From a virus (lineage: Duplodnaviria > Caudoviricetes), in IMG/VR virus record IMGVR_UViG_3300044682_000021, positions 96-64,095 of that record: 64,000 nt of DNA; one strand, written 5' to 3'. Positions within the stretch are counted from its first letter, which is position 1. Each line of letters opens with the position of its first letter. A program made the position numbers and the translations under genes. The notes under the pieces are model-generated. The model saw nothing but the letters and a program-made list of their open reading frames with translations. It was not told the DNA's origin and did no database searches. Positions 4,005-62,056 of the stretch are shown in pieces.

Positions 4005-7000
4005 TCAGATGCGGGCTTGGTCCCCCGCCGACGACCCCAGGTTGCGGTATCGCAGATAATTGTCCTGTCGTGCCCATGCGCCGACCTCCACTTCCCAGTT
4101 CTCAAGGTACAACTGAAACGGTGCTGTGCTGGTAGCGACGTAGAAGAATAATTGCCCCTTGTTGGCGGTCAGTATCACTGCCAGCTTCTGCATCGCGCCA
4201 CCCGTCGCCGGGAGCGTGATCGCCGCCGGCGACTGGCCATCGTAACTCGTAATGGTGAGCGTCACAGGCTGCGTAGCCGCGTAGCACGGCGAAACCTGCT
4301 TGAGGTGCATGTAGCCTTGCAGCCCGTGCGCCGTTCCCTGCGTCTGCCATGTCTCCGCCATCTCCGGCGTCGCTTCGTACACCCACTCGACGCCGAAGAA
4401 CCGCCACGCCACCTGATCCGTCGGCTCCAGCCGCATCGTATGCGCCACGAAGGGAGCGTTGAACGAGTACGCGATGACGCACTCGCCGTTGTGCTGCACT
4501 ACTGGCGTGAACGCGTGCAGCGCCAATGCGTCGCCGTCGCGCACCTGCAATCCCTTCACGGCGTCGAACGTGTCCGCGTGCAGCAGGAATCCCTGCACCC
4601 ACTTCGCCGCCTCGGTCCCTGCGTCGTACCAGTCCGTGTAGCGGTCGGCGATGGTTTCCGGCTTGGGGACGTAGGACGGCTCCCACGCTTGGATGACCGT
4701 GGGCGCGGATTGCGTGGCGAAGTTATCTGTCCATGCCAGTTGCAGGCCGAGGAAGTCGGACAGGATCTCGCCGCCCAGCGATACGGGCGTCTGGACGACG
4801 CCAGCGGACGTGGGGATGGTCGTAGGTGGTGCCACCTGCGCCCCGAACGCCATCGGCGTCGCCATCACGCCAGTCGCCGTCACAGGTTGCAGGTAGGCCC
4901 AGAGGTCGCCCCACTGCTCTCCGGCGCGCAGGTCGCCGCCGTCCCATTCCAGTGTGGCGATTACGGCGGATATCGTCCCAATGGGCGGCGTGAGCACGAT
5001 AGCCACGCCCGCCACATGGGTCTTGGTGAAATTGGCGACGATCCCCGGCGATAAAGGCCCGCCGTCGTTAATGCCCTGGATGACTACGCTTTCACTGTTG
5101 ACGCCCGCGTCTATCTCCACCGTATCGCCGATCTCGAATCCTACGAAGCTTATTACTTTAACATTCTGTAATCCCGTAACCGTGATCGCAGCAGTGGTGG
5201 TGGTGCTAGCACCCAGCCCCGTGATGTCATTGGTGAAATCCTGTGCCACGAGGATCGGCCCGAGGCTCGACCCTGCGACCAGTTGCGGGTACGCACGCGT
5301 CTCGCTCAGCAGCGTCCCAGCCTGCTGCTCCAGGGCGTAGTACGTCGTGACTGTCATGGTGGCGAACGTGTCCGGCGTCCACGCATGACGGCGGATGTCG
5401 TAGGTCAGAGTACAGAATGCGCCAGTGGAGTTGCGGTACAGCGCCCGCAGGTAGCCCTCACACACGACCAGCCGGAACGACGCCGCGTAGGCGTAGTTGG
5501 GAGCGTATATCGTCTGACCGTTGTAAGTATAGTCCACCCCCGCCACACCATCGTGCGGGAACAGGTTATAGAGGTCCGCGTCCGTCAGCGACCCCCCGCC
5601 AGACGAGTAGATGCCATCCTCCGCCCACCAGTAGAGTGTCTTGCCGTCGTTGCAGTGGCCCCACGGCGCGGCGAGGCCTCGGGTGAGCGGCTGTTGGACG
5701 ACGGAGTAACGTTGCGTGGGATTCGACAGTTGCGGGTACAAGGCCCACCACCGCTTCGGCGACGCTACGTAGCTGAGTCCGTCAATGGTCTCCCCGCCCA
5801 GCAGCGGCTCCGTTGGCGGCGTGATCTCTATGGGATAGGAGTCGGGCGCGGCATCCGGCGCGTAATTCTTCGACGGATACAGCACACCGGGACGCACCGG
5901 ATCACCGACCGCGAAGACCGTCCCCGCCGCGTCTGGTCCCCACATATACGGCAGAAGTTGCCGCGCCATTTCGGGCTCGTAGATGGTGACAGGGATGCCC
6001 GCGAGCAGCGCTCCGGCGTTCTCTACGAGGGATAAGAGATAGGTGTTGCCGCTGATCAGCGTAGGCCGCGTCCGCAGCGTGTAAACGTTAATCCCTCCGA
6101 TCTGGATCAGGTTGCCGGGGAGATAGCGCAAGAGGTTGCCCGGCGTCACGGCCTGGACCAGCAACGCAGTGCCGACGACCTGGTCGGTGGTCTGGAGGAA
6201 CGGTACATCAATCGAAGGCCACGGTTCGAGGTTGTCGAACTCCAGTTCCTCGCCCTCGGATACGGCTTCGTCGGAATAGTTGTCTACGAATGGAGACACG
6301 GACGACGATGCCTGCTGGCCGACCTTGCGCCACGATGTAAGCGAGCCACCATAGCGGAACACGTCCCACGTGTCAATCTGAGCATCGTAAGCGGCGGATG
6401 GTGGGACCACGCTCACCGGGTTGCGCCGGGGGTTGACGCCATAGCGCGTCTCCGGCGACGGATTCCCCTTCGCACCCGTGACGCTGGACCGTGGCCGCAC
6501 GCGATACAGGTACGGCGCGCCACTGTCGCCTACGTCCGGCTGGAACCGCCCGAACACACTGCACTCGCCGACCGAGGCGTTCGTGGCAGCGCTTACATTG
6601 AACAGGAACTGGACCGCGTTGAGGTTCTGGAGCGACTTCGTCTGATCGTTGCCTACCCGCGTGAGAGCGGAAATGGGGAACACGATCTCCACCCATTGGC
6701 CGTCGCCGGGAGTGGTCTGGGCGCTGGAGGCGGTGGCAAGCTGGTTGTGCGACGCCGCCGCCTGCTCCTCGTCGATGGTCGCGCGCTGCGTGACCAGTTG
6801 CGCCGCGCCGAGTTGTGTCAGCGTGTTCTGCACCGCCGCCTCGATGTCCGAGACGCGCACCGTGTAGAAGTAGAAGTTCTGGGTGAAGGACCCGTCGCCT
6901 ACGTCCAACAGGAACTTGAGTTCGTTCAGCGACGCGAGTGTGGTAATGGCGAACGAGATATGGATATAGTCCTCGGGCTGGTACGAGCCTCCGGCGTTGA

Positions 7001-43117: not shown

Positions 43118-44473
43118 ATGACACCTAAAGACTTGGAAGCACTCCGAAAACTTCTCGACATGGCGAAGACCTACAAAACGGCGAATTGCCTAACTGTCAT
43201 TGATGCAGAGCGAGTAATTCTACAACTTCTAGAGCAGCCGAACACCGTTGAAGTTAGCGGGATATGGCTTCGATTCATTGACGACAAGGCACAAGTTTTG
43301 GCAGAGGTTGGGGGCCATTGGCGTTTACTGATGGAAGAATCCTTCATTCTTGGCGAAGGCAATCCGAACTTTTCCCACATCTATGAACCTTCTGGCATTC
43401 GCTCAGCACCCGTAGACCCCCTAATGAAAATGAGCTATGCCGGAACAAGGGGACGACCGGAAGCGAATAACGCTGTGGCAATGGAAAAGGAGCAGAGAAT
43501 GAAAATTACACTCGAACTCTTGCGCAGCAAAGGTGCTTGCTCAGCTGGAATGACTTGGGTTGAAGAGAATCTTCCCAATGGCGCTGAGTATCAAGTTTTT
43601 CTTGATGCGCTGGCGGCTGCTGACAAGCCTGACTGGGCTTCTTGGCTTCTCGCAAACTTCGGCAGAACAACAGATATAAAGACGGTGACTGCTGTCACTG
43701 CCGGCACAAAACACATATTCGCTGCTGGGCGCTTAGTTTTTGAGTGTTCAGTAAGTGTACTCGGGGTTATCGAAGCTGGCGAGGGTATCAAAGCTGGCGA
43801 GGGTATCGAAGCTGGCGGGGGTATCAAAGCTGGCGAGGGTATCGAAGCTGGCTGGGGTATCAGAGCTGGCGTTCGTATCGAAGCTGGCGAGGGTATCAAA
43901 GCTGGCGAGGGTATCAAAGCTGGCGAGGGTATCAAAGCTGGCAGGGGTATCGAAGCTGGCAGGGGTATCGAAGCTGGCGGGGGTATCAAAGCTGGCTGGG
44001 GTATCAGAGCTGGCGGGGGTATCAGAGCTGGCGGGGGTATCAAAGCTGGCTGGGGTATCGAAGCTGGCGAGGGTATCAAAGCTGGCGGGGGTATCAAAGC
44101 TGGCGAGGGTATCAAAGCTGGCGAGGGTATCGAAGCTGGCTGGGGTATCAGAGCTGGCGGGGTTATCGAAGCTGGCGTTCGTATCGAAGCTGGCGAGGGT
44201 ATCGAAGCTGGCGAGGGTATCGAAGCTGGCGAGGGTATCAAAGCTGGCAGGGGTATCGAAGCTGGCAGGGGTATCGAAGCTGGCAGGGGTATCAAAGCTG
44301 GCGAGGGTATCAAAGCTGGCTTTCAGATCACGTGCAAACTTGACATCACTGTGAGACTAAGGATCTTCGCTGGTGTCTGTGACTGGAGATTGCCCTCTGC
44401 TGAAGAAACAACAATCACCTGCCGCGCCGTAAAGTCCGGAACTGTTGCTTTCGGATTAGTGGTGAAAGCGTAA
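43118..44473 (+). CDS. Hexapeptide-repeat (GI[EKR]AGx) beta-solenoid protein; probable internal start at 43499
   Basis: 31 repeats; AAGGAG RBS before MKITLELLRSKGAC. Confidence 0.75.
   Translation: MTPKDLEALRKLLDMAKTYKTANCLTVIDAERVILQLLEQPNTVEVSGIWLRFIDDKAQVLAEVGGHWRLLMEESFILGEGNPNFSHIYEPSGIRSAPVDPLMKMSYAGTRGRPEANNAVAMEKEQRMKITLELLRSKGACSAGMTWVEENLPNGAEYQVFLDALAAADKPDWASWLLANFGRTTDIKTVTAVTAGTKHIFAAGRLVFECSVSVLGVIEAGEGIKAGEGIEAGGGIKAGEGIEAGWGIRAGVRIEAGEGIKAGEGIKAGEGIKAGRGIEAGRGIEAGGGIKAGWGIRAGGGIRAGGGIKAGWGIEAGEGIKAGGGIKAGEGIKAGEGIEAGWGIRAGGVIEAGVRIEAGEGIEAGEGIEAGEGIKAGRGIEAGRGIEAGRGIKAGEGIKAGFQITCKLDITVRLRIFAGVCDWRLPSAEETTITCRAVKSGTVAFGLVVKA
43769..44320 (+). repeat. 18-bp coding tandem repeat, 31 units
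   Basis: ATC(GAA/AAA/AGA)GCTGGC(GAG/GGG/TGG/AGG/GTT)GGT. Confidence 0.97.
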
Positions 44474-52948: not shown

Positions 52949-53010
52949 CGATTTCCCTTGACAAAGTATCACCACTTGAGTATGGTAACACCACTATGAA
53001 TAACACCACT
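52949..53010 (+). promoter_or_regulatory. Promoter with triple CACCACT operator
   Basis: CGATTTCCC-TTGACA-17 nt-TATGGT; CACCACT at 52970, 52989 and 53004. Confidence 0.65.
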
Positions 53011-53187
53011 CTCAAACCCGCCCCCAAGCACGGCCCGTCGATCCGCATCCGGTTCCGCAACCTAGCCCAGAGGAACGCGCTTCGCCGGGCCGCCCGCCTC
53101 CGAGGGCTGACCCTGAACACTTACGCCATGACCGTGCTGGTGGATGCGGCGCGGGTGGCCCTGAAAGGAGTGGGCGGCAATGGCTAA
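52996..53187 (+). CDS. Ribbon-helix-helix (Arc-like) regulator
   Basis: IRIRF strand plus LRRAARLRGLTLNTY helices. Confidence 0.7.
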   Translation: MNNTTLKPAPKHGPSIRIRFRNLAQRNALRRAARLRGLTLNTYAMTVLVDAARVALKGVGGNG

Positions 53188-54214
53188 ATCCGGCTGCATC
53201 TACGGGCCAACGTCTTCGTTCAAGACGACCGCTATCGCCCACTTCGCGCACTATATCGCGGAGAAGACGGGCAAAGCGACGCTCCTGTTCAGCGCTGACG
53301 GCGGCGGCTGGGCGCCATGTGAGGAAGAAGTCCGCGCTGGGATGATCCGCCCTTACCGCTGTGACACGGCGAACATTCCTCTTCCAGTGGTTCGCAAGGT
53401 GTCGCAGGGCTACTGGCCGCGCAACCCTGAAGAGACGGATATTGCCAAGGTAGAGTTCCACCGTGCCAACTGGGACGAGATCGGTGGGATAGCGGTCGAG
53501 GGATTCACCTCGATCGGCACCATGTTCATGCGCCACGCAGCGGACAAGAACCTGAAAACGGGCGAGGAGGGAACGTCGAAGTTCTACCAGCCTATCAACA
53601 TCGCAGGCAACGTCGAGCAGGAAGTGTTTGCTGGTTCTTCGAAAGGGCACTACAATTTTGTGCAAAATCAACTCTTCGGCATGACCATGAATTTCACGTC
53701 CCTGCCTGTCGAGTACGTCCTGTTCACGGGACTGGAGAAAAAGGGCGAGGATGACGACCGCTCGACAGTGTATGGCGTCAGCGTCCCTGGTAAGGCGATC
53801 ACCAACCAGATCCCGACGTGGGTGGGTGATTTAATCCACGCGCAGGACTTCGCGGTGCCGCGAAAGGTACGGGTTCCGCCACCGGGTAAGATCGCAGCGC
53901 AGTGCAAACCGGAGGAGCTGATAGAGACGGACATTGTGGACACCGTGTGCCGTTACTACTTCAAGAAGCATCCAGACCCGTCGAGTGGGATCATGTTCCC
54001 CGCCAAGCCACGCGTGACTCACGGCGCGGTCAGGGAGTTGGAGAAACGCTATCCTGGTGGATACTTTGAGCCTTCTACAGAATCGGGATTCGACGACTAC
54101 CTGCGCGTGATCGACGAACTTAGCGCCGGACGGGCGGATTCGATGAAGGACTGGCGTGCCAAGGCTGACGCCAAGCTGGGGCGTGGGGTGGCGGGAGTAG
54201 CAACACCAAAATGA
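53180..54214 (+). CDS. Sak4/AAA_24-like ATPase
   Basis: IYGPTSSFKTT Walker A variant, IAVEG, PGKA...IPTWVG; lies between nuclease and SSB-like genes. Confidence 0.7.
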   Translation: MAKSGCIYGPTSSFKTTAIAHFAHYIAEKTGKATLLFSADGGGWAPCEEEVRAGMIRPYRCDTANIPLPVVRKVSQGYWPRNPEETDIAKVEFHRANWDEIGGIAVEGFTSIGTMFMRHAADKNLKTGEEGTSKFYQPINIAGNVEQEVFAGSSKGHYNFVQNQLFGMTMNFTSLPVEYVLFTGLEKKGEDDDRSTVYGVSVPGKAITNQIPTWVGDLIHAQDFAVPRKVRVPPPGKIAAQCKPEELIETDIVDTVCRYYFKKHPDPSSGIMFPAKPRVTHGAVRELEKRYPGGYFEPSTESGFDDYLRVIDELSAGRADSMKDWRAKADAKLGRGVAGVATPK

Positions 54215-54220
54215 CATTGA

Positions 54221-54298
54221 TGCGGGGATTGAGCTACGCTGCGCTCGCAAGTCTCATAAACTTGATCGTACCGCGTTGAACTCGCGGCCCCGCTACCA
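54221..54298 (+). tRNA. Non-canonical tRNA with CAT anticodon (Met/fMet/Ile2-like)
   Basis: GCGGGG/CCCCGC acceptor, GAGC/GCTC D stem, CAAGT-CTCATAA-ACTTG, CCGCG-TTGAACT-CGCGG, encoded ACCA. Confidence 0.8.
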
Positions 54299-54301
54299 AT
54301 C

Positions 54302-54570
54302 TCGTATGGCGATGTGGAAGGACACATTCGATAATGTTGACGCAATGCGATACAGGCTTGATGGGCGGTCTGGTGGCGACACTGGACGCATATTAGCGGC
54401 CCGTCCCGAAAGAGCGAGAGGACTCAGAGTACGGATGCAGCCTGTTCAACAGTAGACAACAACGTCCGGTAGGACCGACACTTCCGGCTGACATAAACTC
54501 AGTCTAGTTAAAGGTCGCCGTTGTTGGGTTGAGAAACCGCATAAGCTGGTATCAAGCCCAGTCCATACGA
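54302..54570 (+). ncRNA. 269-nt structured RNA with tRNA-like closing arms
   Basis: TCGTATGG/CCATACGA closing stem, D-like and T-like arms, nested helices, GNRA tetraloops, no convincing ORF. Confidence 0.7.
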
Positions 54571-54662
54571 TAAAGTTTGTTAGCCGACCGAAACAACTAT
54601 GCCGTGCTGGCGCGCACGGTGACGCCTCCCGCGCCTACTCACACTCACGGAGGAAACACACC

Positions 54663-55412
54663 ATGTCCGCATTTGGAGAAGTCACCTACGCCGACGCGCC
54701 TGCCGAAGCCGCAGCCGCGCCCAGCGAGCAACCTCAACTCATCGACCCCAACGACCCCCGGCTCACGTCGGAAACGCTCACCGACTCCGGCGCTGACGCC
54801 TACGCGATCCTGCCTCCGCTCCCCGATGGCAAGTGGCGCGCCAAGGCCAAGCAGGTGGACATCAAGGACGACAAGGGGCAGCAACAGCGGTACTCCGTGT
54901 TCTCGCGGCCCAAGATGGCGAACGGAGCGCCGTTCTTCGCCACCAACGTGGAGTTCTCGATCATCGACCATTCGGGCAAGAACGACGGCGTCAAGCTGAC
55001 CGAGTATTGGGTCAAGACGCTGATCGACGACCGCAAAGGGACCAGCCAAGCGGCGACGCTGATCCGCAAACTGGGCAAGCCGACGCCGCCCGCCGCCACG
55101 CATAAGGTGATCATCGACCTGCTGCTGGCGACCCTCGCCGCCGAGCCGGAGCTGGTGGTCGAAACGTCATGGTCCGCCGAGTGCCAGCACTGTCAGGAGT
55201 CGGCGAAGAAGAAGGGCGACCGCGCCCCGCGACCGTTCCTGCAAGGGATGCACCGCTTCCCTGCGACCAAGGTTCCGGGCGAGCACGACCCGATGGCCAA
55301 GTGTGGGACGTGCAACTCAATGGTGCGGGCGCAGCCGCGGATCGTAGGTTTCTATTCCCTCGCCGAATCGCAGCCGACGCGGGGCACGGGGCACGCGGCG
55401 ACGGGGAAGTGA
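54663..55412 (+). CDS. Probable ssDNA-binding protein with Zn ribbon
   Basis: PPLPDGKW N-terminal motif; position after the Sak4-like ATPase; CQHC..CGTC. Confidence 0.55.
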   Translation: MSAFGEVTYADAPAEAAAAPSEQPQLIDPNDPRLTSETLTDSGADAYAILPPLPDGKWRAKAKQVDIKDDKGQQQRYSVFSRPKMANGAPFFATNVEFSIIDHSGKNDGVKLTEYWVKTLIDDRKGTSQAATLIRKLGKPTPPAATHKVIIDLLLATLAAEPELVVETSWSAECQHCQESAKKKGDRAPRPFLQGMHRFPATKVPGEHDPMAKCGTCNSMVRAQPRIVGFYSLAESQPTRGTGHAATGK

Positions 55413-55458
55413 GCAACGGATTCGGCGGCGCGGCCAACGCTCTGGCGATGCCGCCGAC

Positions 55459-55506
55459 GGACGCGGGACCGAGGCTAATCCCTTACCCGCGTCCCTTCTT
55501 ACTCTT
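55459..55506 (+). terminator. Probable terminator
   Basis: GGACGCGGG/CCCGCGTCC stem followed by CTTCTTACTCTT. Confidence 0.5.
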
Positions 55507-55624
55507 ATGCTGTGGGAACTTAAATCGTTCGTGGCGTTCACGCGCTCTGCGCCATGCTGGATGACCCCTATGTTCCAAGTATGCTTATATACACAGGACG
55601 ATCAAGAGTCGCACCTGATAACTC

Positions 55625-55852
55625 GTGACGCGAACGGCTTGCGTTACATACCAGTCGAGGTGGATGATGGCCAGCCAAGCAACTGAGAACTGGATGCCTC
55701 GCTGCCCGCAGTGCGGACAAGGCACGCCCATGCTGGCCCCTGCCAACGGGTTCACCAAGCATATCGTGGACAAGGTGGAAGTGTACTGTGCGGAGTGTCG
55801 CTGGCGGGCGGTGCTGGCGGATGTGATAACGCAGGTGTATGTGAGGAGCTGA
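55625..55852 (+). CDS. Small Zn-ribbon protein
   Basis: CPQCG...YCAEC; start probably later (MMASQ). Confidence 0.55.
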   Translation: MTRTACVTYQSRWMMASQATENWMPRCPQCGQGTPMLAPANGFTKHIVDKVEVYCAECRWRAVLADVITQVYVRS

Positions 55853-55854
55853 GG

Positions 55855-57357
55855 ATGCCGCATGGATTCCCTATCGACGCTGCTGTGCCCGATTCACCAC
55901 GTCCCCCTGACGCTGCGAACGCTGGTACTGGGATCGTTCGGCCTGCTGCCGGAGGACCGACGCCGCTACGAATGGTGGCAATGCCTGACGGAGATACCGA
56001 ACGTGTCGCCGCAGGCACAGAAGCCGTCGAGGAGGTGCCAATACTGCTTGCCGAGGACGGCGGCGAGTCCGCCGGCATTCCCGGCGAATCTGGCGGTGAC
56101 ACTGCATTCCCATGTGAGTTCATTTGCGGAGTTGCAGGGAGCGGCAAAACCCACACCGTCCGCGAAGCCATCGTCGCTGATCCATCGTGGGGCCTCCTCT
56201 GTGCTACGACCGGGATCGCGGCCATCAACCTCGGGGCGGTGACCCTGAACTCTACGCTTGGCTACTTCGACACCGACAGCCTCCGCGACGCCTACCTATC
56301 CGGCCAACTGGTACGCAAGCTCAAGGCCATCCGCGAGGACTACCGCCGACTGGCGATCGACGAAGTGTCGATGATGGACGGCGACCAGCTCGGCATCCTG
56401 GTCCGCGCCACGCGGGTGGCCAACTCGTTCAAGTCCGCCACGGGCGCGCCGCCCTTGGGATTGTGCCTCGTGGGCGACTTCGCCCAGTTGCCGCCCGTCC
56501 GCGCCCGATGGGCGTTCGAGTCCGACGAATGGCGGCGCTTCGATGAGCATACTACCCGGCTCACGAAGGTGTGGCGGCAGGGGCTGGGGCCGTTCCTCGA
56601 CGCGCTCAACTTTGCCCGCAGTGGGGACGGTGGCCAAGCCGCCGCGTTGTTGTCCGAGTCCGGCCTTGAATGGCACACTGGCTTGGACATCAACTTTGAT
56701 GGCACAACCATCGTCCCCAAGAACGACGCCGTGGACCGATATAACGGGATGGCCCTCGACCGCCTGCCGGGGCCGACGTTCACTCTCGCTTCCCGCCGCT
56801 GGGGCAAGCAGCGCGGCGACTGGAAGCAGGTGCCGGAGGGGGTCAAGTTGAAGCGCGGGGCCTATGTCATGCTGCTGGCGAACGCCTACGACGATGAGGG
56901 GCGTATGGAGTACGCGAACGGGGATTGCGGGCACGTAATCGAGCAGACGCCAGGAGGATTGTGTGTGGAACTCGTTCGTAATGGTGCGGTCGTGGGAGTC
57001 GAGCGCGTCTGCCGCGACGTGGGCCACAAGGGCAAGCCCACCGGCTGGGACGGCGTAACCGGACACGGCGAGTGGCTCCCGCGACCGCACTGGATGCCCG
57101 ACAAGCGGCGCTACGTCGAGGGCCAGTGCGAGTTCTTCCCGGTGCGACTGGCGTATGCGAGCACGGTACACAAGTCGCAAGGGCTGAGTTTGGATCGCCT
57201 CCAAGTCGATGTGCGGGACCATTTCTTCTCCAGTTACGGGATGATCTATGTTGCGATGTCACGGGCCAGAACGTTGGAGGGACTGCGGATCGTGGGGCAG
57301 AAGGAACGATTTATAACTCAGTGTAAATGTGATCCGAGGGTACGACGATGGCTGTAG
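55855..57357 (+). CDS. Pif1/RecD-like SF1B helicase
   Basis: GVAGSGKT, TTGIAA, IDEVSM, GDFAQLPPV, WRQ, LAYASTVHKSQG, YVAMSR. Confidence 0.93.
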   Translation: MPHGFPIDAAVPDSPRPPDAANAGTGIVRPAAGGPTPLRMVAMPDGDTERVAAGTEAVEEVPILLAEDGGESAGIPGESGGDTAFPCEFICGVAGSGKTHTVREAIVADPSWGLLCATTGIAAINLGAVTLNSTLGYFDTDSLRDAYLSGQLVRKLKAIREDYRRLAIDEVSMMDGDQLGILVRATRVANSFKSATGAPPLGLCLVGDFAQLPPVRARWAFESDEWRRFDEHTTRLTKVWRQGLGPFLDALNFARSGDGGQAAALLSESGLEWHTGLDINFDGTTIVPKNDAVDRYNGMALDRLPGPTFTLASRRWGKQRGDWKQVPEGVKLKRGAYVMLLANAYDDEGRMEYANGDCGHVIEQTPGGLCVELVRNGAVVGVERVCRDVGHKGKPTGWDGVTGHGEWLPRPHWMPDKRRYVEGQCEFFPVRLAYASTVHKSQGLSLDRLQVDVRDHFFSSYGMIYVAMSRARTLEGLRIVGQKERFITQCKCDPRVRRWL

Positions 57358-57840: not shown

Positions 57841-58047
57841 ATGGCCTATCACACACTAACGACTGAAAGCGGCGGCGACGAGCGCTCGCGTATTGAGGAG
57901 GCACACACTATCGTGCGTCTGCTTGAGGAAGTGACCGAGGAGATGACGCCGAAGGAGCGCGAGTTCGTCGAACAGATGGCGGACTGCGACTACTGCACCA
58001 CGAAGCAGGTGTTCTGGCTGCGTGACATCAAGGATAAGTATCTATGA
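57841..58047 (+). CDS. Hypothetical protein
   Basis: GGAGG RBS; ATGA coupling to the polymerase. Confidence 0.6.
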   Translation: MAYHTLTTESGGDERSRIEEAHTIVRLLEEVTEEMTPKEREFVEQMADCDYCTTKQVFWLRDIKDKYL

Positions 58048-60995
58048 GAGCCAAGCCTTCCAGTTGCGACGGCTGCCAGTTGCAGCACCGAGGCACCGAC
58101 TTCTCTCAGGTCGAGGGGACCGGATCGCTCGGCGTAATGATCGTGGCGGAAGCGAGTGGCGAGATGGAAGCCCGCGACCAACTGCCGCTGCGTCCCTACG
58201 CCCCCGCCGGGTCGCTGCTGGAGCGGACATTCCGACGGATAGGTTACTCGCGGCAACAATTCTCACTGACCAACACCCTCCGCTGCCGCCCGCCGAATAA
58301 TTGGCTCTCGGGCGCGCCGTGGGAGTTCTCCGCCCTCAACCATTGCCGCCCCAACCTCGACGCCGCCATCGGCGACCGCCGGCCGCGCGCGATCCTGGCG
58401 CTGGGTGACACCGCGCTGCGGGAACTGACGGGGGAGGCAGGGGAGGCGAGGGGCGTGTCGCATCTGGCGGGGTACGTGTTGCCGACTACCTCCGTGCGTG
58501 AGCCTTGCACGAACTGTATCAGCTACGAATCGGAAATGAAGGACGCATCTTGCAGCGCGTGTCGCGGGAGTGGATTAGTGCAGAATGGGGGGACGGGCAG
58601 CATCCCCGTGATCCCCACCTTCCACCCCGCGTTCATCCGCCGCGGCAAGGCATCCCTGCAAGGCTTGTTCGCCCGCAACCTGCAACGCGCGGTGAACGTG
58701 GCAGCGGGGCGGGACAGAGAGTGGGAGTGGGACTTAGAGGAGGCACAACGCAATGGACGCATCAGATATCAGGTACATCCTAGCCTTGACGAGGCGCGAT
58801 CATTTGTTACGCGAGTTAGAGGAAATTCGGGATTCACTCTCAGTTACGACATCGAGACTTTCGAGAGCGCGAGTCTTGATGAGGACGCTAGAGACGGATT
58901 TACTGATACTAGAATCCGGCTCATCCAGTTCTCAGTCGAAGGAGGCTCTGGAATCGCTCTACCTTGGGACGGCGATTATCGAAGAGTTGCTCAAGAGCTA
59001 CTCCTCCTCCCAAACACTAAATGCGGCCACAACCTCTGGCTCTTCGACAACCGCGTCCTCGAAGCCTGCGGGGCCCGCGAGGGACTAGACCTCCGCCCCC
59101 GCGGCCCGATCCACGACACCCTCGCCATGTTCCACCACTGGCAGCCGGACCTCCCGGCCCACCTCCAGTTCGCGGCACAGTTCGTGTCGTTCCCGTTCCC
59201 GTGGAAGCACCTGGCGGCGACGGATCTGGAATTCTACGGCTGCGTGGACGTGGATGCGACGCTGCGGCTGTACACGTTCTTACGGGCACAATTAGAAAGG
59301 GATGGTATATGGGACGACCAAAGCTACATGAACACACTTGCCCCTTCTGTAAGCAGCCTTGGACACACAACAACAGCGCATGTACCGACGGAGAGTATCG
59401 AGCCTGCCGATTCTGCAAAGACGCTTATCACCTACAAGAGCGTTCGAGGGTACGTCGGGCAAGTGGCTGAAGTGAGGCCGATCCTCGCGGCGATGGAACG
59501 CCGTGGATTGCCAGTGGACGACGCCGAGCGGCTGAAGCTGGACGGGGAGTTTGACTTGGCGCAACAGGAACTCGACGCCCAGTTGCAGGCCCGTGTCCCT
59601 GCCGAGGTGCTGGGACTGGAGCCGCGACGGGGGAAGAAAGGGAACTATGACTATGGCTACCTTAAAACGCCGAAAGATACTGACGGTCTCGTATTGCGGA
59701 CCTTTACCATCGCCGCGATTGATGAAAGCACTCAGGAGCCTTGCACGCGCAGCGTCGAACGCTATTGCCGCATCGTTCCATTCAACGCCAATTCAGGTCA
59801 GCAGTTGCTGCGGTACATGGACGCAAGAAAGCATAAAAGGCCGAAGTCACGTGAGCAAGACGACGAGGGGAACGACAAAGACACGACAGGCAAGAAAGAG
59901 TTAGTGCGGCTGGCTCATCGGAGCGGCGACGACTTCTACTTGAAGGTGATCGAGTACCGGGAACTCAGCAAGATGCGCGGGACGTATATCGAGGGATTCG
60001 TGCCACACACGGACGGTCGCGTCCACACGACGTTCACGTTCGACACTGGCATCGGCCAACTATCGTCGCGTAATCCCAACATCCAGAATTATCCGAAGCA
60101 TGGGCGACTGGCGAAAGCGGTACGCAAGATGATCGCGGCCAAGCCAGGCCATGTCCTCACCGAATGGGATTATAAGTCCTGCCACGTTCTCACTCTCGGC
60201 TTCCTCGCAGAAGACGCCAATTACATCCGTTGCGCCCGCATCGACATGCACTCCATTGTCACGGGGCATAAGCTCGGCCTGTGGCACGCCATCCAACTCC
60301 TGCGCGACTACGATGACGCGGCCATCCGCGCCAAGTGCAAATGGCTGAAGTCGAACGCCGAGTGGAAGCACATCCGCGACGCCCGCATGAAGCACGCCAT
60401 CCTCGGCATCGGCAACGGCCTGAAGGCGCGCGGGCTGTACGAGAAGCACATGGAGGACTTCTCGTCGCAGAAGGAGGCGCAGTCGTTCCTCGATGTGGTG
60501 GAGGAACTGTTCCCCAAAGTGTTCGCGTGGCACAAGATGGTGCAGCAGAAGGCCCATGACCAGCAATGGCTGAAGACACAGTACGGCCACATGCGGCGGT
60601 TCTACGAAGTGTTCGTGTGGAACTACAAGAAGGCTGCGTATGGCCACGGCGATCAGGCGGAGGAGGCTATCTCCTACTGGCTGTCCAACATCGCGTTCGG
60701 TTACATCCGCGAGCACATGAAGCTCTTGGAGGCGGCAGGACTCAACGAGAAGTACGGCCTGTGCAACAACGTCCACGACTCGCTGATGTTCCACTTCCCT
60801 GCCGCCATGCTGGACGAGCACGTGCGGGAGGTATACCCGCTGCTGGTCACGCCGTCGAAGGTGCTCACCCACCCGACGATATGCCCCGAGGGGCTGTGGA
60901 TCGACGCGGAGGCGAACGCGGGGCCGAACTGGGCGGAGATGGAGGAAGTGGCGATACCAAAGGAGGCTCACCTTGAAGCTACGCCAGTATCGTAA
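58044..60995 (+). CDS. Family A DNA polymerase with N-terminal family-4 UDG-like domain and 3'-5' exonuclease
   Basis: VAEASG, RCRPP, HPAF (UDG); YDIET, HN..FD, YGCVD (exonuclease); GQLSSRNPNIQN, DY, DMH, HD (polymerase). Confidence 0.93.
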   Translation: MRAKPSSCDGCQLQHRGTDFSQVEGTGSLGVMIVAEASGEMEARDQLPLRPYAPAGSLLERTFRRIGYSRQQFSLTNTLRCRPPNNWLSGAPWEFSALNHCRPNLDAAIGDRRPRAILALGDTALRELTGEAGEARGVSHLAGYVLPTTSVREPCTNCISYESEMKDASCSACRGSGLVQNGGTGSIPVIPTFHPAFIRRGKASLQGLFARNLQRAVNVAAGRDREWEWDLEEAQRNGRIRYQVHPSLDEARSFVTRVRGNSGFTLSYDIETFESASLDEDARDGFTDTRIRLIQFSVEGGSGIALPWDGDYRRVAQELLLLPNTKCGHNLWLFDNRVLEACGAREGLDLRPRGPIHDTLAMFHHWQPDLPAHLQFAAQFVSFPFPWKHLAATDLEFYGCVDVDATLRLYTFLRAQLERDGIWDDQSYMNTLAPSVSSLGHTTTAHVPTESIEPADSAKTLITYKSVRGYVGQVAEVRPILAAMERRGLPVDDAERLKLDGEFDLAQQELDAQLQARVPAEVLGLEPRRGKKGNYDYGYLKTPKDTDGLVLRTFTIAAIDESTQEPCTRSVERYCRIVPFNANSGQQLLRYMDARKHKRPKSREQDDEGNDKDTTGKKELVRLAHRSGDDFYLKVIEYRELSKMRGTYIEGFVPHTDGRVHTTFTFDTGIGQLSSRNPNIQNYPKHGRLAKAVRKMIAAKPGHVLTEWDYKSCHVLTLGFLAEDANYIRCARIDMHSIVTGHKLGLWHAIQLLRDYDDAAIRAKCKWLKSNAEWKHIRDARMKHAILGIGNGLKARGLYEKHMEDFSSQKEAQSFLDVVEELFPKVFAWHKMVQQKAHDQQWLKTQYGHMRRFYEVFVWNYKKAAYGHGDQAEEAISYWLSNIAFGYIREHMKLLEAAGLNEKYGLCNNVHDSLMFHFPAAMLDEHVREVYPLLVTPSKVLTHPTICPEGLWIDAEANAGPNWAEMEEVAIPKEAHLEATPVS

Positions 60996-62056
60996 CTCGG
61001 ACGGCTCGACGGAGGTTGTGGTTGAGGGGACGAACGCTCGCCTTCGGGCGCTGCTCGGGGCAGATATCGTCCCAGCTCGCCGATTCCGTGCGACGGTTCA
61101 TCCCGATAGCACGCCGCTTGCCACGGACACGGCCCTCCCGCCAGCGGATCGCACGCCGACCGCGCCATCGGCATCACCATCGCCTGCGTCCCTGCCACCG
61201 ATGCCATTTCCCTGGCCAGCAGAGCGACTTCATCACGTACTCGACGTAGATGCGACGGGGCAGGTAGCGAAATGGATATGTGATGAAGGAGGGCGGGGGT
61301 AACGTGATCGTCGTCCATCAGGTCGCACCATTCGTCGGGATCTGGCTTCGTCTGGTCCGCATACCACAAGGGCGTCCACTTGTCGCCGCTCAACTTGCGC
61401 CATCCGCCCTTGCCGTCGGGCCGCTGGAACCGGAACATCCCCGCGATGCACGGGTGCCGCCAGCAGCGCGCCCACGGCGAATGCCGCCGGCCCGCCACCT
61501 GCCGTCCGATCTCCACGACGTGCAGGTCCATTGGCAGCTCACAGAAGGCCATGTCCGCGATGGTGTGCCACGAGTGGGCCTCGCGGGCGAGGTCGGCGTC
61601 GGACCAGGAGTCGATGGTGAGGTAGCGGTGGAGGCGGGTGATGGAAGAATAGGAGAGAGGCTGATATGACAGATACTCAGACTGTAACGTTGTTGTGTGA
61701 GGGGATGTATCTAGAGGCGCTATTGGGGGTAATTTTTGGAGCTTGGGCAATGTGGTACGCGACAGGGCCGTTAAGACGACTCCTAGCATCCCGCACCAGT
61801 CCTGCGCCACCGTCCACGGATCTCCCGCCGTCACGTCCAGCCCCGGATTCGCTGCCTGCGCCAGAAAGCGAGTTCGAGCGCTGGACACGACAGTGGCAGG
61901 AGCGGCCCCCGACGATAATTGGAGTAGACCTTGGCGCAAGCACGAGTCGAATAGGGATTTTGGTCGGCGACGAGCAACCTGCCACGTCCGCTCCAGAATC
62001 CAGCGGCGGCGGCACGTCTGCCACTGGCGAAGATCGGAGGCGGTGAATGTTGTCAC
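60968..62056 (-). CDS. Second Cas4/PD-(D/E)XK-like protein; catalytic motifs appear eroded
   Basis: ASDLRQWQTCRRRW and C....GGPCPWQAACY; GTGA coupling to the upstream ejection-type gene. Confidence 0.7.
   Translation of the reverse strand: MTTFTASDLRQWQTCRRRWILERTWQVARRRPKSLFDSCLRQGLLQLSSGAAPATVVSSARTRFLAQAANPGLDVTAGDPWTVAQDWCGMLGVVLTALSRTTLPKLQKLPPIAPLDTSPHTTTLQSEYLSYQPLSYSSITRLHRYLTIDSWSDADLAREAHSWHTIADMAFCELPMDLHVVEIGRQVAGRRHSPWARCWRHPCIAGMFRFQRPDGKGGWRKLSGDKWTPLWYADQTKPDPDEWCDLMDDDHVTPALLHHISISLPAPSHLRRVRDEVALLAREMASVAGTQAMVMPMARSACDPLAGGPCPWQAACYRDEPSHGIGELGRYLPRAAPEGERSSPQPQPPSSRPSYDTGVASR

What the first reader, a model, noticed from the sequence alone, without database searches (positions are those of the whole stretch)
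54302..54570. Candidate novel ncRNA: tRNA-like frame with a ~215-nt folded domain replacing the anticodon arm
Seen: closing stem TCGTATGG/CCATACGA; D-like arm ATGTG-GAAGGA-CACAT; T-like arm GCTGG-TATCAAGC-CCAGT adjoining the 3' strand. Between them are TGTTGA/TCAACA (54335/54446), ACAGGCT/AGCCTGT (54352/54439), GATGGGC/GCCCGTC, GTCTGGTG-GCGA-CACTGGAC, CAACAACG/CGTTGTTG (54457/54519), GGCTGA/TCAGTC and GGTT-GAGA-AACC. G-U pairs and GNRA loops indicate a plus-strand RNA. It lacks tmRNA alanine identity, an encoded CCA and clear group I core motifs. Inference: an unnamed tRNA-mimic RNA class co-transcribed with the odd tRNA, possibly acting on ribosomes, tRNA-targeting defences or replication priming.
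Basis: partly seen in the sequence, partly recalled or inferred. Interest (0 to 1): 0.85.

Follow-up and report, generated by a model that had tools for sequence, protein, structure and literature searches.

The report
Orphan RNA cassette after phage tRNA-like
A roughly 275-base non-coding stretch that folds moderately well sits in a swappable slot just after a conserved tRNA-like gene in an uncultured phage; it matches no known RNA family, and nothing yet shows it mimics a tRNA or is functional.

Summary
The "tRNA frame" is weak: the T-like arm has an ensemble pairing probability of 0.10, and no tRNA, tmRNA, YrlA, GOLLD, ROOL or group I model matches. Folding is only moderately better than chance (z -2.35 for the chosen 269 nt, +0.29 for the whole gap, 16 of 399 genome windows as good). 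The stretch does hold the richest cluster of GNRA-capped hairpins on the plus strand.

The window is a complete 64-kb uncultured phage. The element lies in a 448-nt gap between a Sak4-like gene and an unknown 249-aa gene. Ten related phage records have neither the element nor the neighbouring tRNA-like.

The closest relative, a metagenome contig, keeps the tRNA-like at 75 of 77 identical bases. Its two changes are a compensatory pair, while its flanks are 81% identical. It carries an unrelated 117-nt folded segment in place of the element. Lake-metagenome contig pieces carry the element at 99-100% identity.

So this is a real, discrete, non-coding cassette in a slot directly 3' of a conserved tRNA-like. 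It is most likely a co-transcribed accessory RNA. No divergent homologue was found, so there is no covariation test, and no expression data. Interest is moderate.

The parts
53180..54214 (+). Upstream gene, Sak4-like ssDNA-annealing protein (344 aa)
   Evidence: ORF; PHROG phrog_124 E 2.1e-06; 52-68% identical relatives in 10 IMG/VR records.
54222..54298 (+). Conserved tRNA-like cloverleaf (CAT in a 7-nt loop, ends in ACCA), directly upstream of the element
   Evidence: Cloverleaf is the minimum-energy fold, z -2.15. ARAGORN calls it tRNA-Met(CAT) only at the relaxed 80% threshold. No Rfam tRNA match at E <= 10. 75 of 77 bases identical in L018, and the 2 changes are a compensatory pair in the T-stem, while L018's flanks are 81% identical. 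78 of 78 identical on a soil contig whose downstream gene start differs at 28 places plus 10 gaps in 183 (run X4, record 12).
54299..54575 (+). The cassette: about 275 nt of non-coding DNA that is present, replaced or absent among close relatives.
   Evidence: A contig of run X4 joins 54298 to 54584 with 128 other letters between. L018 has an unrelated 117-nt segment here. A 13-letter loose end in run X2 joins the tRNA-like end almost directly to 54581. Contig pieces of runs X2 and X3 cover 54229-54381, 54270-54454 and 54466-54606 with 1, 0 and 2 differences. Single copy in the window.
54302..54309 (+). 5' strand of the 8-bp closing stem, which is also a terminal inverted repeat; partner 54563-54570
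   Evidence: Perfect 8-nt inverted repeat I5; pairing probability 0.95.
54312..54327 (+). D-like hairpin ATGTG-GAAGGA-CACAT
   Evidence: Pairing probability 0.91.
54335..54451 (+). Domain A: nested helices TGTTGA/TCAACA, ACAGGCT/AGCCTGT and GATGGGC/GCCCGTC around the GCGA-capped hairpin
   Evidence: Pairing probabilities 0.78, 0.96 and 0.98; present in both the minimum-energy and centroid folds.
54368..54387 (+). 8-pair hairpin with a GCGA (GNRA) tetraloop and two tandem G-U pairs
   Evidence: The only GNRA hairpin with a stem of 8 or more pairs on the 64-kb plus strand; none on the minus strand. Pairing probability 0.65. G-U pairs at 54371/54384 and 54372/54383.
54457..54526 (+). Domain B: GGCTGA/TCAGTC hairpin inside the alternative closing helix CAACAACG/CGTTGTTG
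   Evidence: The inner hairpin has probability 0.84; the outer helix only 0.16.
54527..54562 (+). 3' region with two competing folds: GGTT-GAGA-AACC plus the T-like arm GCTGG/CCAGT, or one longer imperfect hairpin
Evidence: The minimum-energy fold pairs 54524-54530 with 54555-54561.
54576..54662 (+). Leader shared with L018, with a conserved hairpin (54602-54619) and the ribosome-binding site of the next gene
   Evidence: 85.7% identical to L018 over 84 aligned nt (alignment). Absent from the short gaps of the other 10 records.
54663..55412 (+). Downstream gene p249 (249 aa, unknown function, Cys-rich C-terminus)
   Evidence: ORF. No Pfam, PHROG or PDB match. Relatives at 49-78% identity in 10 IMG/VR records.

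Best explanation
The 54302-54570 stretch is the core of a discrete, roughly 275-nt non-coding accessory cassette (about 54299-54575). It occupies a swap slot directly 3' of a conserved, non-canonical tRNA-like gene inside the plus-strand replication operon of an uncultured 64-kb phage.

Most likely it is transcribed with the tRNA-like and the downstream genes. It would be released as a stem-closed, GNRA-rich folded RNA when host tRNA-processing enzymes cut the tRNA-like out (RNase P at its 5' side, RNase Z/E and exonucleases at its 3' side). It would then act in trans as a dispensable phage RNA.

Shown: discreteness, non-coding nature, the slot, conservation of the tRNA-like, and moderate plus-strand folding.

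Inferred: transcription, processing, and any function. It is not a member of any described RNA family, and the tRNA-mimic frame is not needed to explain it.
For: - **Discrete slot.** L018 and a soil contig keep the tRNA-like but hold an unrelated 117-128-nt segment where the window has 54299-54583. The two fillers are unrelated: local alignment score 15 against a shuffle mean of 16.1, with 351 of 500 shuffles as good. Both fold about equally better than shuffles, z -2.35 and -2.43.
- **The neighbour is a functional RNA.** 75 of 77 bases are identical, with one compensatory C-G to U-A pair, against 81% identical flanks. It is 78 of 78 identical on a contig whose coding flank differs at 28 places plus 10 gaps in 183 nt.
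- **Non-coding.** None of the 8 six-frame ORFs reaches a family cut-off. The 59-aa ORF has no relative in IMG/VR or in 5.8 billion proteins.
- **Plus-strand RNA signals.** z is -2.35 on the plus strand and -1.46 on the minus strand. 7 of 10 named helices have P >= 0.65. 3 of the genome's 46 GNRA hairpins lie here, including the only 8-pair one.
- **Operon context.** All neighbouring genes are on the plus strand. No promoter-like or plus-strand terminator-like site lies in 53000-56000.
- **Copies elsewhere.** Contig pieces in two lake-metagenome studies show 3 differences plus 1 gap over the 479 laid bases of three overlapping pieces.
- **Precedent for the logic.** Phage GOLLD and ROOL RNAs lie near tRNA genes, and one GOLLD lies downstream of a Met-tRNA (passages of bioRxiv 10.1101/2024.12.08.627333; PMC5737381). 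Herpesviral TMERs are a tRNA-like followed by hairpins released by tRNase Z (passage of PMC4838037).
Against: - No divergent homologue was found, so there is no covariation at all. The only copies are 99-100% identical.
- Folding is not exceptional. The whole gap has z +0.29, and 16 of 399 genome windows fold as well after GC adjustment. The 269-nt boundaries were chosen on the closing stem, which inflates z.
- Three of the ten helices, including the T-like arm, are disfavoured.
- The element is absent from 10 of 10 related phage records. It is replaced or missing in close relatives, so it is dispensable and could be filler.
- There are no expression data of any kind.
- The near-identity of the lake copies may reflect recent spread and not constraint. 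No contig links them to diverged coding flanks.
Confidence: 0.4

Rival explanations
1. Non-functional filler. The gap between two conserved genes is a recombination hot spot, and this is a scrap of foreign DNA whose folding is near the ordinary tail of the genome's distribution.
For: The same gap holds an HNH_3 homing endonuclease in L013 and a small ORF in L002. It is 40-99 nt in the other 8 of 10 records. The whole gap has z +0.29, and 16 of 399 windows fold as well. There are no homologues, no family and no covariation.
Against: GNRA-capped hairpins are clustered far above the genome background (3 in one window; 0.16% of 1275 windows). Strand asymmetry favours the sense strand. The unrelated filler in L018 is also folded, z -2.43. 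The element recurs almost unchanged in two lake studies.
Confidence: 0.25
2. A selfish mobile insertion without an ORF (a miniature inverted-repeat element, an IS200/IS605-type palindromic element, or an ORF-less self-splicing intron) that landed in the trailer of the tRNA-like.
For: It has a perfect 8-bp terminal inverted repeat (I5). It is present, absent or replaced at one precise site. The lake copies are nearly identical. Read against the element-free junction, the insert would follow a T and end in G, as group I introns do (reading). Its size and GNRA loops fit a small intron.
Against: The Intron_gpI model finds nothing at E <= 10 in the whole genome or in cmscan. I could not thread a P3-P7 pseudoknot by eye. 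No target-site duplication flanks the inverted repeat. It is single-copy in the phage. No extended match was found in the species genomes behind the genome-contig scan: the 18-mer gave 19 hits, all limited to 18-23 nt. The phage has no transposase-like, integrase or reverse-transcriptase partner.
Confidence: 0.2
3. A cis-acting leader (sensor or translational regulator) of the downstream p249 and helicase genes.
For: It lies in the 5' untranslated region, 92 nt upstream of the p249 start. It is on the same strand, with no terminator between.
Against: Relatives express the same genes from 40-99-nt gaps without it. It is separated from the ribosome-binding site by a conserved leader that relatives share without the element. 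It matches no riboswitch family. It is closed on itself by a terminal stem and not paired with the start region.
Confidence: 0.07
4. One reading: a tRNA-shaped scaffold (acceptor-like stem, D-like and T-like arms) whose anticodon arm is replaced by a 215-nt domain, acting as a tRNA mimic.
For: The closing stem, the D-like hairpin with GG in its loop, and a T-like hairpin abutting the 3' strand are all in the sequence. The enforced fold is only 2.5 kcal/mol above the optimum.
Against: The T-like arm has P 0.10. Its loop has 8 nt, not the 7-nt T-loop. There is no CCA or discriminator. The tRNA, tmRNA and YrlA models find nothing at E <= 10, and ARAGORN finds no tRNA or tmRNA. A better tRNA-like already sits next door.
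Confidence: 0.05

Closest known systems
GOLLD and ROOL RNAs (large ornate phage/prophage RNAs)
   Same: Both are phage-encoded, non-coding, multi-helix and of unknown function, and both typically lie next to tRNA genes. One GOLLD lies downstream of a Met-tRNA (passages read). Here the element follows a tRNA-like with CAT in its anticodon-like loop.
   Different: GOLLD and ROOL are two to three times larger (model lengths 416 and 574 positions, against about 270 nt here) and are defined by covariation. Neither model matches at E <= 10 (the ROOL control rang nowhere, so that single test is weak, but cmscan searches were also blank). No covariation is available here.
TMERs of murine gammaherpesvirus 68 (tRNA-like element plus downstream hairpins released by tRNase Z)
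   Same: The layout matches: a viral tRNA-like immediately followed by folded RNA in one transcript, with tRNA 3' processing proposed to free the downstream part (passage of PMC4838037).
   Different: TMERs belong to a eukaryotic virus, are Pol III-driven, and their cargo is pre-miRNA hairpins. Here processing is only inferred, and the cargo is a 270-nt multi-helix fold. This is an analogy of mechanism, not homology.
tmRNA and YrlA (RNAs with a tRNA-like domain closed by the 5' and 3' ends)
   Same: A terminal stem joins the two ends, a hairpin abuts the 3' strand, and a large insert lies between.
   Different: There is no G-U alanine identity pair, no CCA and no canonical T-loop. Neither model matches, and ARAGORN finds no tmRNA.
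ORF-less group I introns of phages and bacterial tRNA genes
   Same: The length is 200-300 nt with GNRA tetraloops, it is discretely present or absent among relatives, and it is flanked by T on the 5' side and ends in G.
   Different: The Intron_gpI model is blank. No P3-P7 core was found. It does not interrupt a gene or the tRNA-like itself.
Stable RNAs of unknown function in the phage T4 tRNA gene cluster (recalled from memory, no call)
   Same: These are small stable phage RNAs encoded beside tRNA genes and matured by the tRNA-processing machinery.

Membership tests
tRNA (Rfam RF00005; ARAGORN) | Cloverleaf with anticodon arm, 7-nt T-loop, and a score above the model threshold | tested here: not met
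   For 54302-54570: no anticodon arm; ARAGORN finds none at default or relaxed settings, and only noise with long introns allowed; RF00005 gives no match at E <= 10 in the genome or by cmscan.
tmRNA (RF00023) | tRNA-like domain with a G-U identity pair and CCA end, a tag reading frame, pseudoknots | tested here: not met
   ARAGORN tmRNA search is blank. RF00023 gives no match at E <= 10, while the control rang in 14 of 14 genomes. No CCA follows 54570.
YrlA / bacterial Y RNA (RF02553) | Long terminal stem plus a tRNA-like module matching the model | tested here: not met
   No match at E <= 10; 4 candidates were scored and none passed.
Group I intron (RF00028) | Conserved P3-P8 core with the P7 guanosine site; a match to the model | tested here: not met
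   No match at E <= 10 in the whole genome or by cmscan on 301 nt with lax filters. Threading by eye failed.
Group I intron (RF00028) | Self-splicing at a U / G-bounded insert | not testable with these tools
   The boundaries read against the element-free junction are compatible. Only a splicing assay or RNA reads can test this.
GOLLD (RF02032) | Match to the conserved 3' domain model | tested here: not met
   No match at E <= 10; cmscan blank.
ROOL (RF03087) | Match to the model | tested here: inconclusive
   No match, but the control rang in 0 of 14 genomes. cmscan of all 4227 families was also blank.
Miniature inverted-repeat transposable element | Terminal inverted repeats | tested here: met
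   8-bp perfect inverted repeat at the two ends (I5).
Miniature inverted-repeat transposable element | Target-site duplication and multiple dispersed copies | tested here: not met
   The flanks TC and TA differ. There is one copy in the window. Ten related phage records have none. The genome contigs 18-mer hits were k-mer only, 19 of 19.
Retron msr-msd / DGR / group II RNA | Adjacent reverse transcriptase | tested here: not met
   No RVT_1 match in the complete phage.
Phage attachment site at a tRNA gene | Integrase in the genome | tested here: not met
   No Phage_integrase match. 5 of the 10 related records have direct terminal repeats.

The most novel reading that the evidence does not exclude
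This phage lineage uses a conserved, non-decoding tRNA-like as a fixed processing handle, with a slot behind it into which unrelated folded cargo RNAs are exchanged by recombination. The slot holds the 270-nt element here, a 117-nt one in soil and peat relatives, and apparently none in a third form. Host tRNA-maturation enzymes would release each cargo. That would make this a bacterial-virus counterpart of herpesviral TMERs and a small-scale cousin of the tRNA-linked GOLLD and ROOL RNAs, with the cargoes serving as alternative host-takeover or anti-defence RNAs.
Probability: 0.2. Interest if true: 0.65.

Novelty: new member of a known kind. Interest (0 to 1): 0.35.

Why it matters
Phage non-coding RNAs next to tRNA genes, such as GOLLD and ROOL, are an open problem because their functions are unknown. 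A much smaller, swappable example directly fused to a conserved tRNA-like would give a simple system. It could test whether tRNA processing is what releases such RNAs, and what the cargo does.

As it stands the evidence supports only a real, discrete, moderately structured non-coding cassette in one rare uncultured lineage. The more robust finding is its neighbour, a conserved cloverleaf that standard tRNA models do not recognise.

Tried and rejected
**Homologue hunting**
- BLAST of the gap against GenBank phages and PLSDB plasmids found nothing.
- BLAST against the 10 related IMG/VR records found only two 14-nt matches at E about 0.28.
- Three exact k-mers of the element were scanned in IMG/VR. 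One gave a single hit (L019). That hit is a 26-nt, 92% match at the start of an unrelated coding region, taken as chance. Two gave nothing.
- Degenerate peptide patterns of the 59-aa ORF gave 51 pattern matches and 0 relatives.
- An 18-mer in genome contigs gave 19 hits, all 18-23 nt only.
- The tRNA-like anchor gave 0 hits in IMG/VR and 0 in genome contigs. In metagenome contigs it gave 2 hits: L017, a chance match in low-GC coding DNA, and L018, a real relative.
- The leader pattern gave 0 hits in IMG/VR.
- The CM of the tRNA-like matched 1 of 11 records, the window's own.

**Other tests that led nowhere**
- Similarity between the element and L018's filler was rejected.
- Long-range pairings I1 (tRNA-like 54253-54270 with 54566-54583) and I4 (54355-54362 with 54551-54558) have ensemble probability 0.00. 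I4 is a pseudoknot that the folding program cannot score.
- Group I threading by eye started from a remembered resemblance of 54434-54460 to the conserved R element. No consistent P3/P7 topology emerged, and the resemblance rests on memory only.
- Evaluating the plus-strand structure on the minus strand gave a meaningless energy because of non-standard pairs; it was discarded.

**Expression and coverage**
- No RNA holder was listed.
- In runs X2 and X3 no near-identical piece was laid on the coding flanks. Parts without cover prove nothing, so I do not use this as evidence that the element is more conserved than its flanks.
- Runs X4-X6 have small word shares. No habitat claim is built on them beyond what the laid contigs show.

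- Paper supplements were not consulted.

Full report
**Setting.** The window is bases 96-64095 of a 64,095-base IMG/VR virus record that CheckV rates 100% complete. Long ORFs, presumably structural genes (not annotated here), run on the minus strand up to about 42 kb, and a replication module runs on the plus strand. Around the finding lie:
- a Sak4-like annealing protein gene, 53180-54214 (phrog_124);
- an unknown 249-aa gene, 54663-55412, with no Pfam, PHROG or PDB match;
- a Dda-like helicase;
- a UDG-PolA fusion.

The polymerase is below 28% identical to any isolated phage, and p249 has no match among them. The lineage is therefore uncultured and its host is unknown. The finding lies in the 448-nt gap between the Sak4-like gene and p249.

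**The observation.**
- In the Boltzmann ensemble 7 of 10 helices have mean pairing probability of at least 0.65. The T-like arm (0.10), the GGTT-GAGA-AACC hairpin (0.10) and CAACAACG/CGTTGTTG (0.16) are outcompeted by a 7-pair stem between 54524-54530 and 54555-54561.
- The 269 nt fold better than shuffles on the plus strand (z -2.35, 2 of 200) and less so on the minus strand (z -1.46, 15 of 200).
- The whole gap does not fold better than shuffles (z +0.29, 61 of 100).
- After GC adjustment 16 of 399 same-sized windows of this genome fold as well or better. The most extreme of those windows lie in an 18-nt tandem repeat (see below).
- An independent signal is stronger. Of 46 GNRA-capped hairpins with at least 4 pairs on the plus strand, 3 lie in the element, one of them weak. 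One is the only such hairpin with 8 pairs. Only 0.16% of 1275 windows hold 3.
- 7 of the 89 pairs in the optimum are G-U.

I rate the observation partly confirmed. The helices are real and the fold is moderately non-random, but the tRNA-shaped frame is not the favoured fold.

**Known families.**
- cmscan against all 4227 Rfam 15 families gave nothing at gathering scores for the whole window.
- It gave nothing at E <= 10 for 54100-54750.
- For 54290-54590 it gave only a 13.6-bit microRNA hit at E 5.4.
- Direct searches of the genome with tRNA, tmRNA, group I intron, GOLLD, ROOL and YrlA models were all blank at E <= 10. The ROOL control rang nowhere, so that single test is weak.
- ARAGORN finds no tRNA or tmRNA in the element.

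**Coding.** Eight stop-to-stop frames across the gap have no credible Pfam or PHROG match; the best is E 0.046 at 14 bits against a 27-bit cut-off. The 59-aa ORF has no relative in IMG/VR or in the 5.8-billion-protein collection, and no ribosome-binding site precedes it. The element is non-coding.

**Comparative context.**
- Thirteen loci from 10 related IMG/VR records keep the Sak4-like gene and p249 adjacent.
- In 8 of 10 the gap is 40-99 nt. In L002 it is 259 nt with a small ORF. In L013 it is 603 nt with an HNH_3 homing endonuclease.
- None of the 10 whole records holds anything like the 448 nt by BLAST, or the tRNA-like by a covariance model.
- The gap is therefore a hot spot for accessory insertions, and both the tRNA-like and the element are peculiar to a sub-lineage.

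**The neighbour.** 54222-54298 folds as a cloverleaf in its minimum-energy structure.
- It has CAT in a 7-nt loop and ends in ACCA.
- It is called tRNA-Met only at ARAGORN's relaxed threshold and gets no Rfam tRNA score at all.
- By my reading of the sequence it has a 6-pair acceptor stem, a D-loop without the usual GG, and G in place of C at T-loop position 56. A C opposite in the D-loop could restore the elbow pair; this is inference only.
- A 20-mer of it found one true relative among 241 million metagenome records, the 1866-nt contig L018.
- L018 is 81% identical to the window in the leader-p249 region, but 75 of 77 in the tRNA-like. The two changes form a compensatory C-G to U-A pair in the T-stem.
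- A soil contig (run X4, record 12) carries it at 78 of 78 next to a p249 start with 28 differences and 10 gaps in 183 nt. A peat contig carries it with 1 difference in 82 nt.
- It is thus a conserved functional RNA, more firmly supported than the element itself.

**The slot.**
- In L018 and on the soil contig the tRNA-like is followed by an unrelated segment, not the element: 117 nt to the shared leader in L018, and "skips 285, 128 letters between".
- The two fillers show no similarity. The local score is 15 against 16.1 +/- 2.4 for shuffles. The global score is 31 against 28.3 +/- 5.8, with 96 of 300 shuffles as good.
- Yet L018's filler is also folded (z -2.43, 2 of 200) and contains a GCGA-capped hairpin.
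- Homology to the window resumes at the leader (85.7%), which carries a conserved hairpin.
- In lake run X2 one 151-nt contig aligns to 54581-54690. It has a 13-letter loose end whose first 8 letters equal the end of the tRNA-like. This is consistent with an element-free junction, though 13 letters is thin.
- Other contig pieces of lake runs X2 and X3, from two studies, cover 54229-54381, 54270-54454 and 54466-54606 with 1, 0 and 2 differences plus 1 gap. The last piece then continues with letters unlike the window after 54606.
- The element is therefore a discrete cassette, about 54299-54575, that exists nearly unchanged in at least two other data sets and is replaced or missing in close kin.
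- I cannot show that its lake copies sit in diverged flanks, because uncovered stretches prove nothing.

**Mechanism.**
- There is no integrase and no reverse transcriptase in the phage. That removes attachment-site, retron, DGR and group II readings.
- There is no promoter-like site and no plus-strand terminator-like site in 53000-56000. The element is most simply part of the operon transcript.
- My best reading (0.4) is a co-transcribed accessory RNA, freed when the adjacent tRNA-like is matched and cut by tRNA-processing enzymes. Its ends would be protected by the 8-pair terminal stem. This layout is known from herpesviral TMERs (passage). It also echoes the tRNA linkage of phage GOLLD and ROOL RNAs, whose functions are also unknown (passages).

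**Verdict.** This is a real and discrete non-coding cassette with moderate evidence of plus-strand RNA structure, and it is unassigned to any family. It has no covariation, no expression data and no function. It is rare: one lineage, and no divergent homologue in any collection I could scan. The tRNA-mimic interpretation is not supported. The interchangeable slot behind a conserved, non-canonical tRNA-like is the most interesting aspect and deserves a covariance-model search of full collections and RNA data.

Noticed in passing
window 54222-54298 (+): A cloverleaf tRNA-like with CAT in its anticodon-like loop. It is invisible to Rfam tRNA and to default ARAGORN, yet it is 97-100% conserved across phages whose flanks are about 81-85% identical, with one compensatory T-stem change. 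It is arguably a stronger candidate for a new functional RNA than the reported element.
   Followed up: yes
window 43118-44473 (+), repeats about 43656-44446: A 451-aa ORF whose C-terminal half is a run of roughly 40 hexapeptide repeats (G-I-K/E-A-G-E/G type), encoded by an 18-nt tandem array. It has no Pfam match. It produces the most stable 269-nt windows in the genome, so it dominates any folding screen.
   Followed up: partly
window 61131-61226 (-): ARAGORN calls a 96-nt tRNA-Pro(AGG) here, inside a long minus-strand ORF. The Rfam tRNA model finds nothing in the whole genome at E <= 10, so this call is probably false.
   Followed up: partly
L013 1223-1789; L002 about 4020-4226: The same Sak4-p249 gap holds an HNH_3 homing endonuclease gene in one relative and a small ORF of about 68 aa in another. 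This marks the gap as an insertion hot spot.
   Followed up: partly
L018 89-178: In the closest relative a 29-aa hydrophobic ORF lies between the Sak4-like gene and the tRNA-like. The window has no counterpart.
   Followed up: no
window 58044-60995 (+): A single 983-aa ORF combines a uracil-DNA-glycosylase-superfamily domain (residues 28-204) with a family A DNA polymerase domain.
   Followed up: no
window 54602-54619 (+); L018 about 424-440: A G+C-rich hairpin in the p249 leader is conserved between the window and L018, and it is the point where a lake contig stops resembling the window. It is not followed by a T-run on the plus strand.
   Followed up: no
L019 14281-14306: A 26-nt, 92% match to the GCGA hairpin of the element lies at the start of an unrelated ORF in another IMG/VR contig. 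It was judged a chance match.
   Followed up: partly
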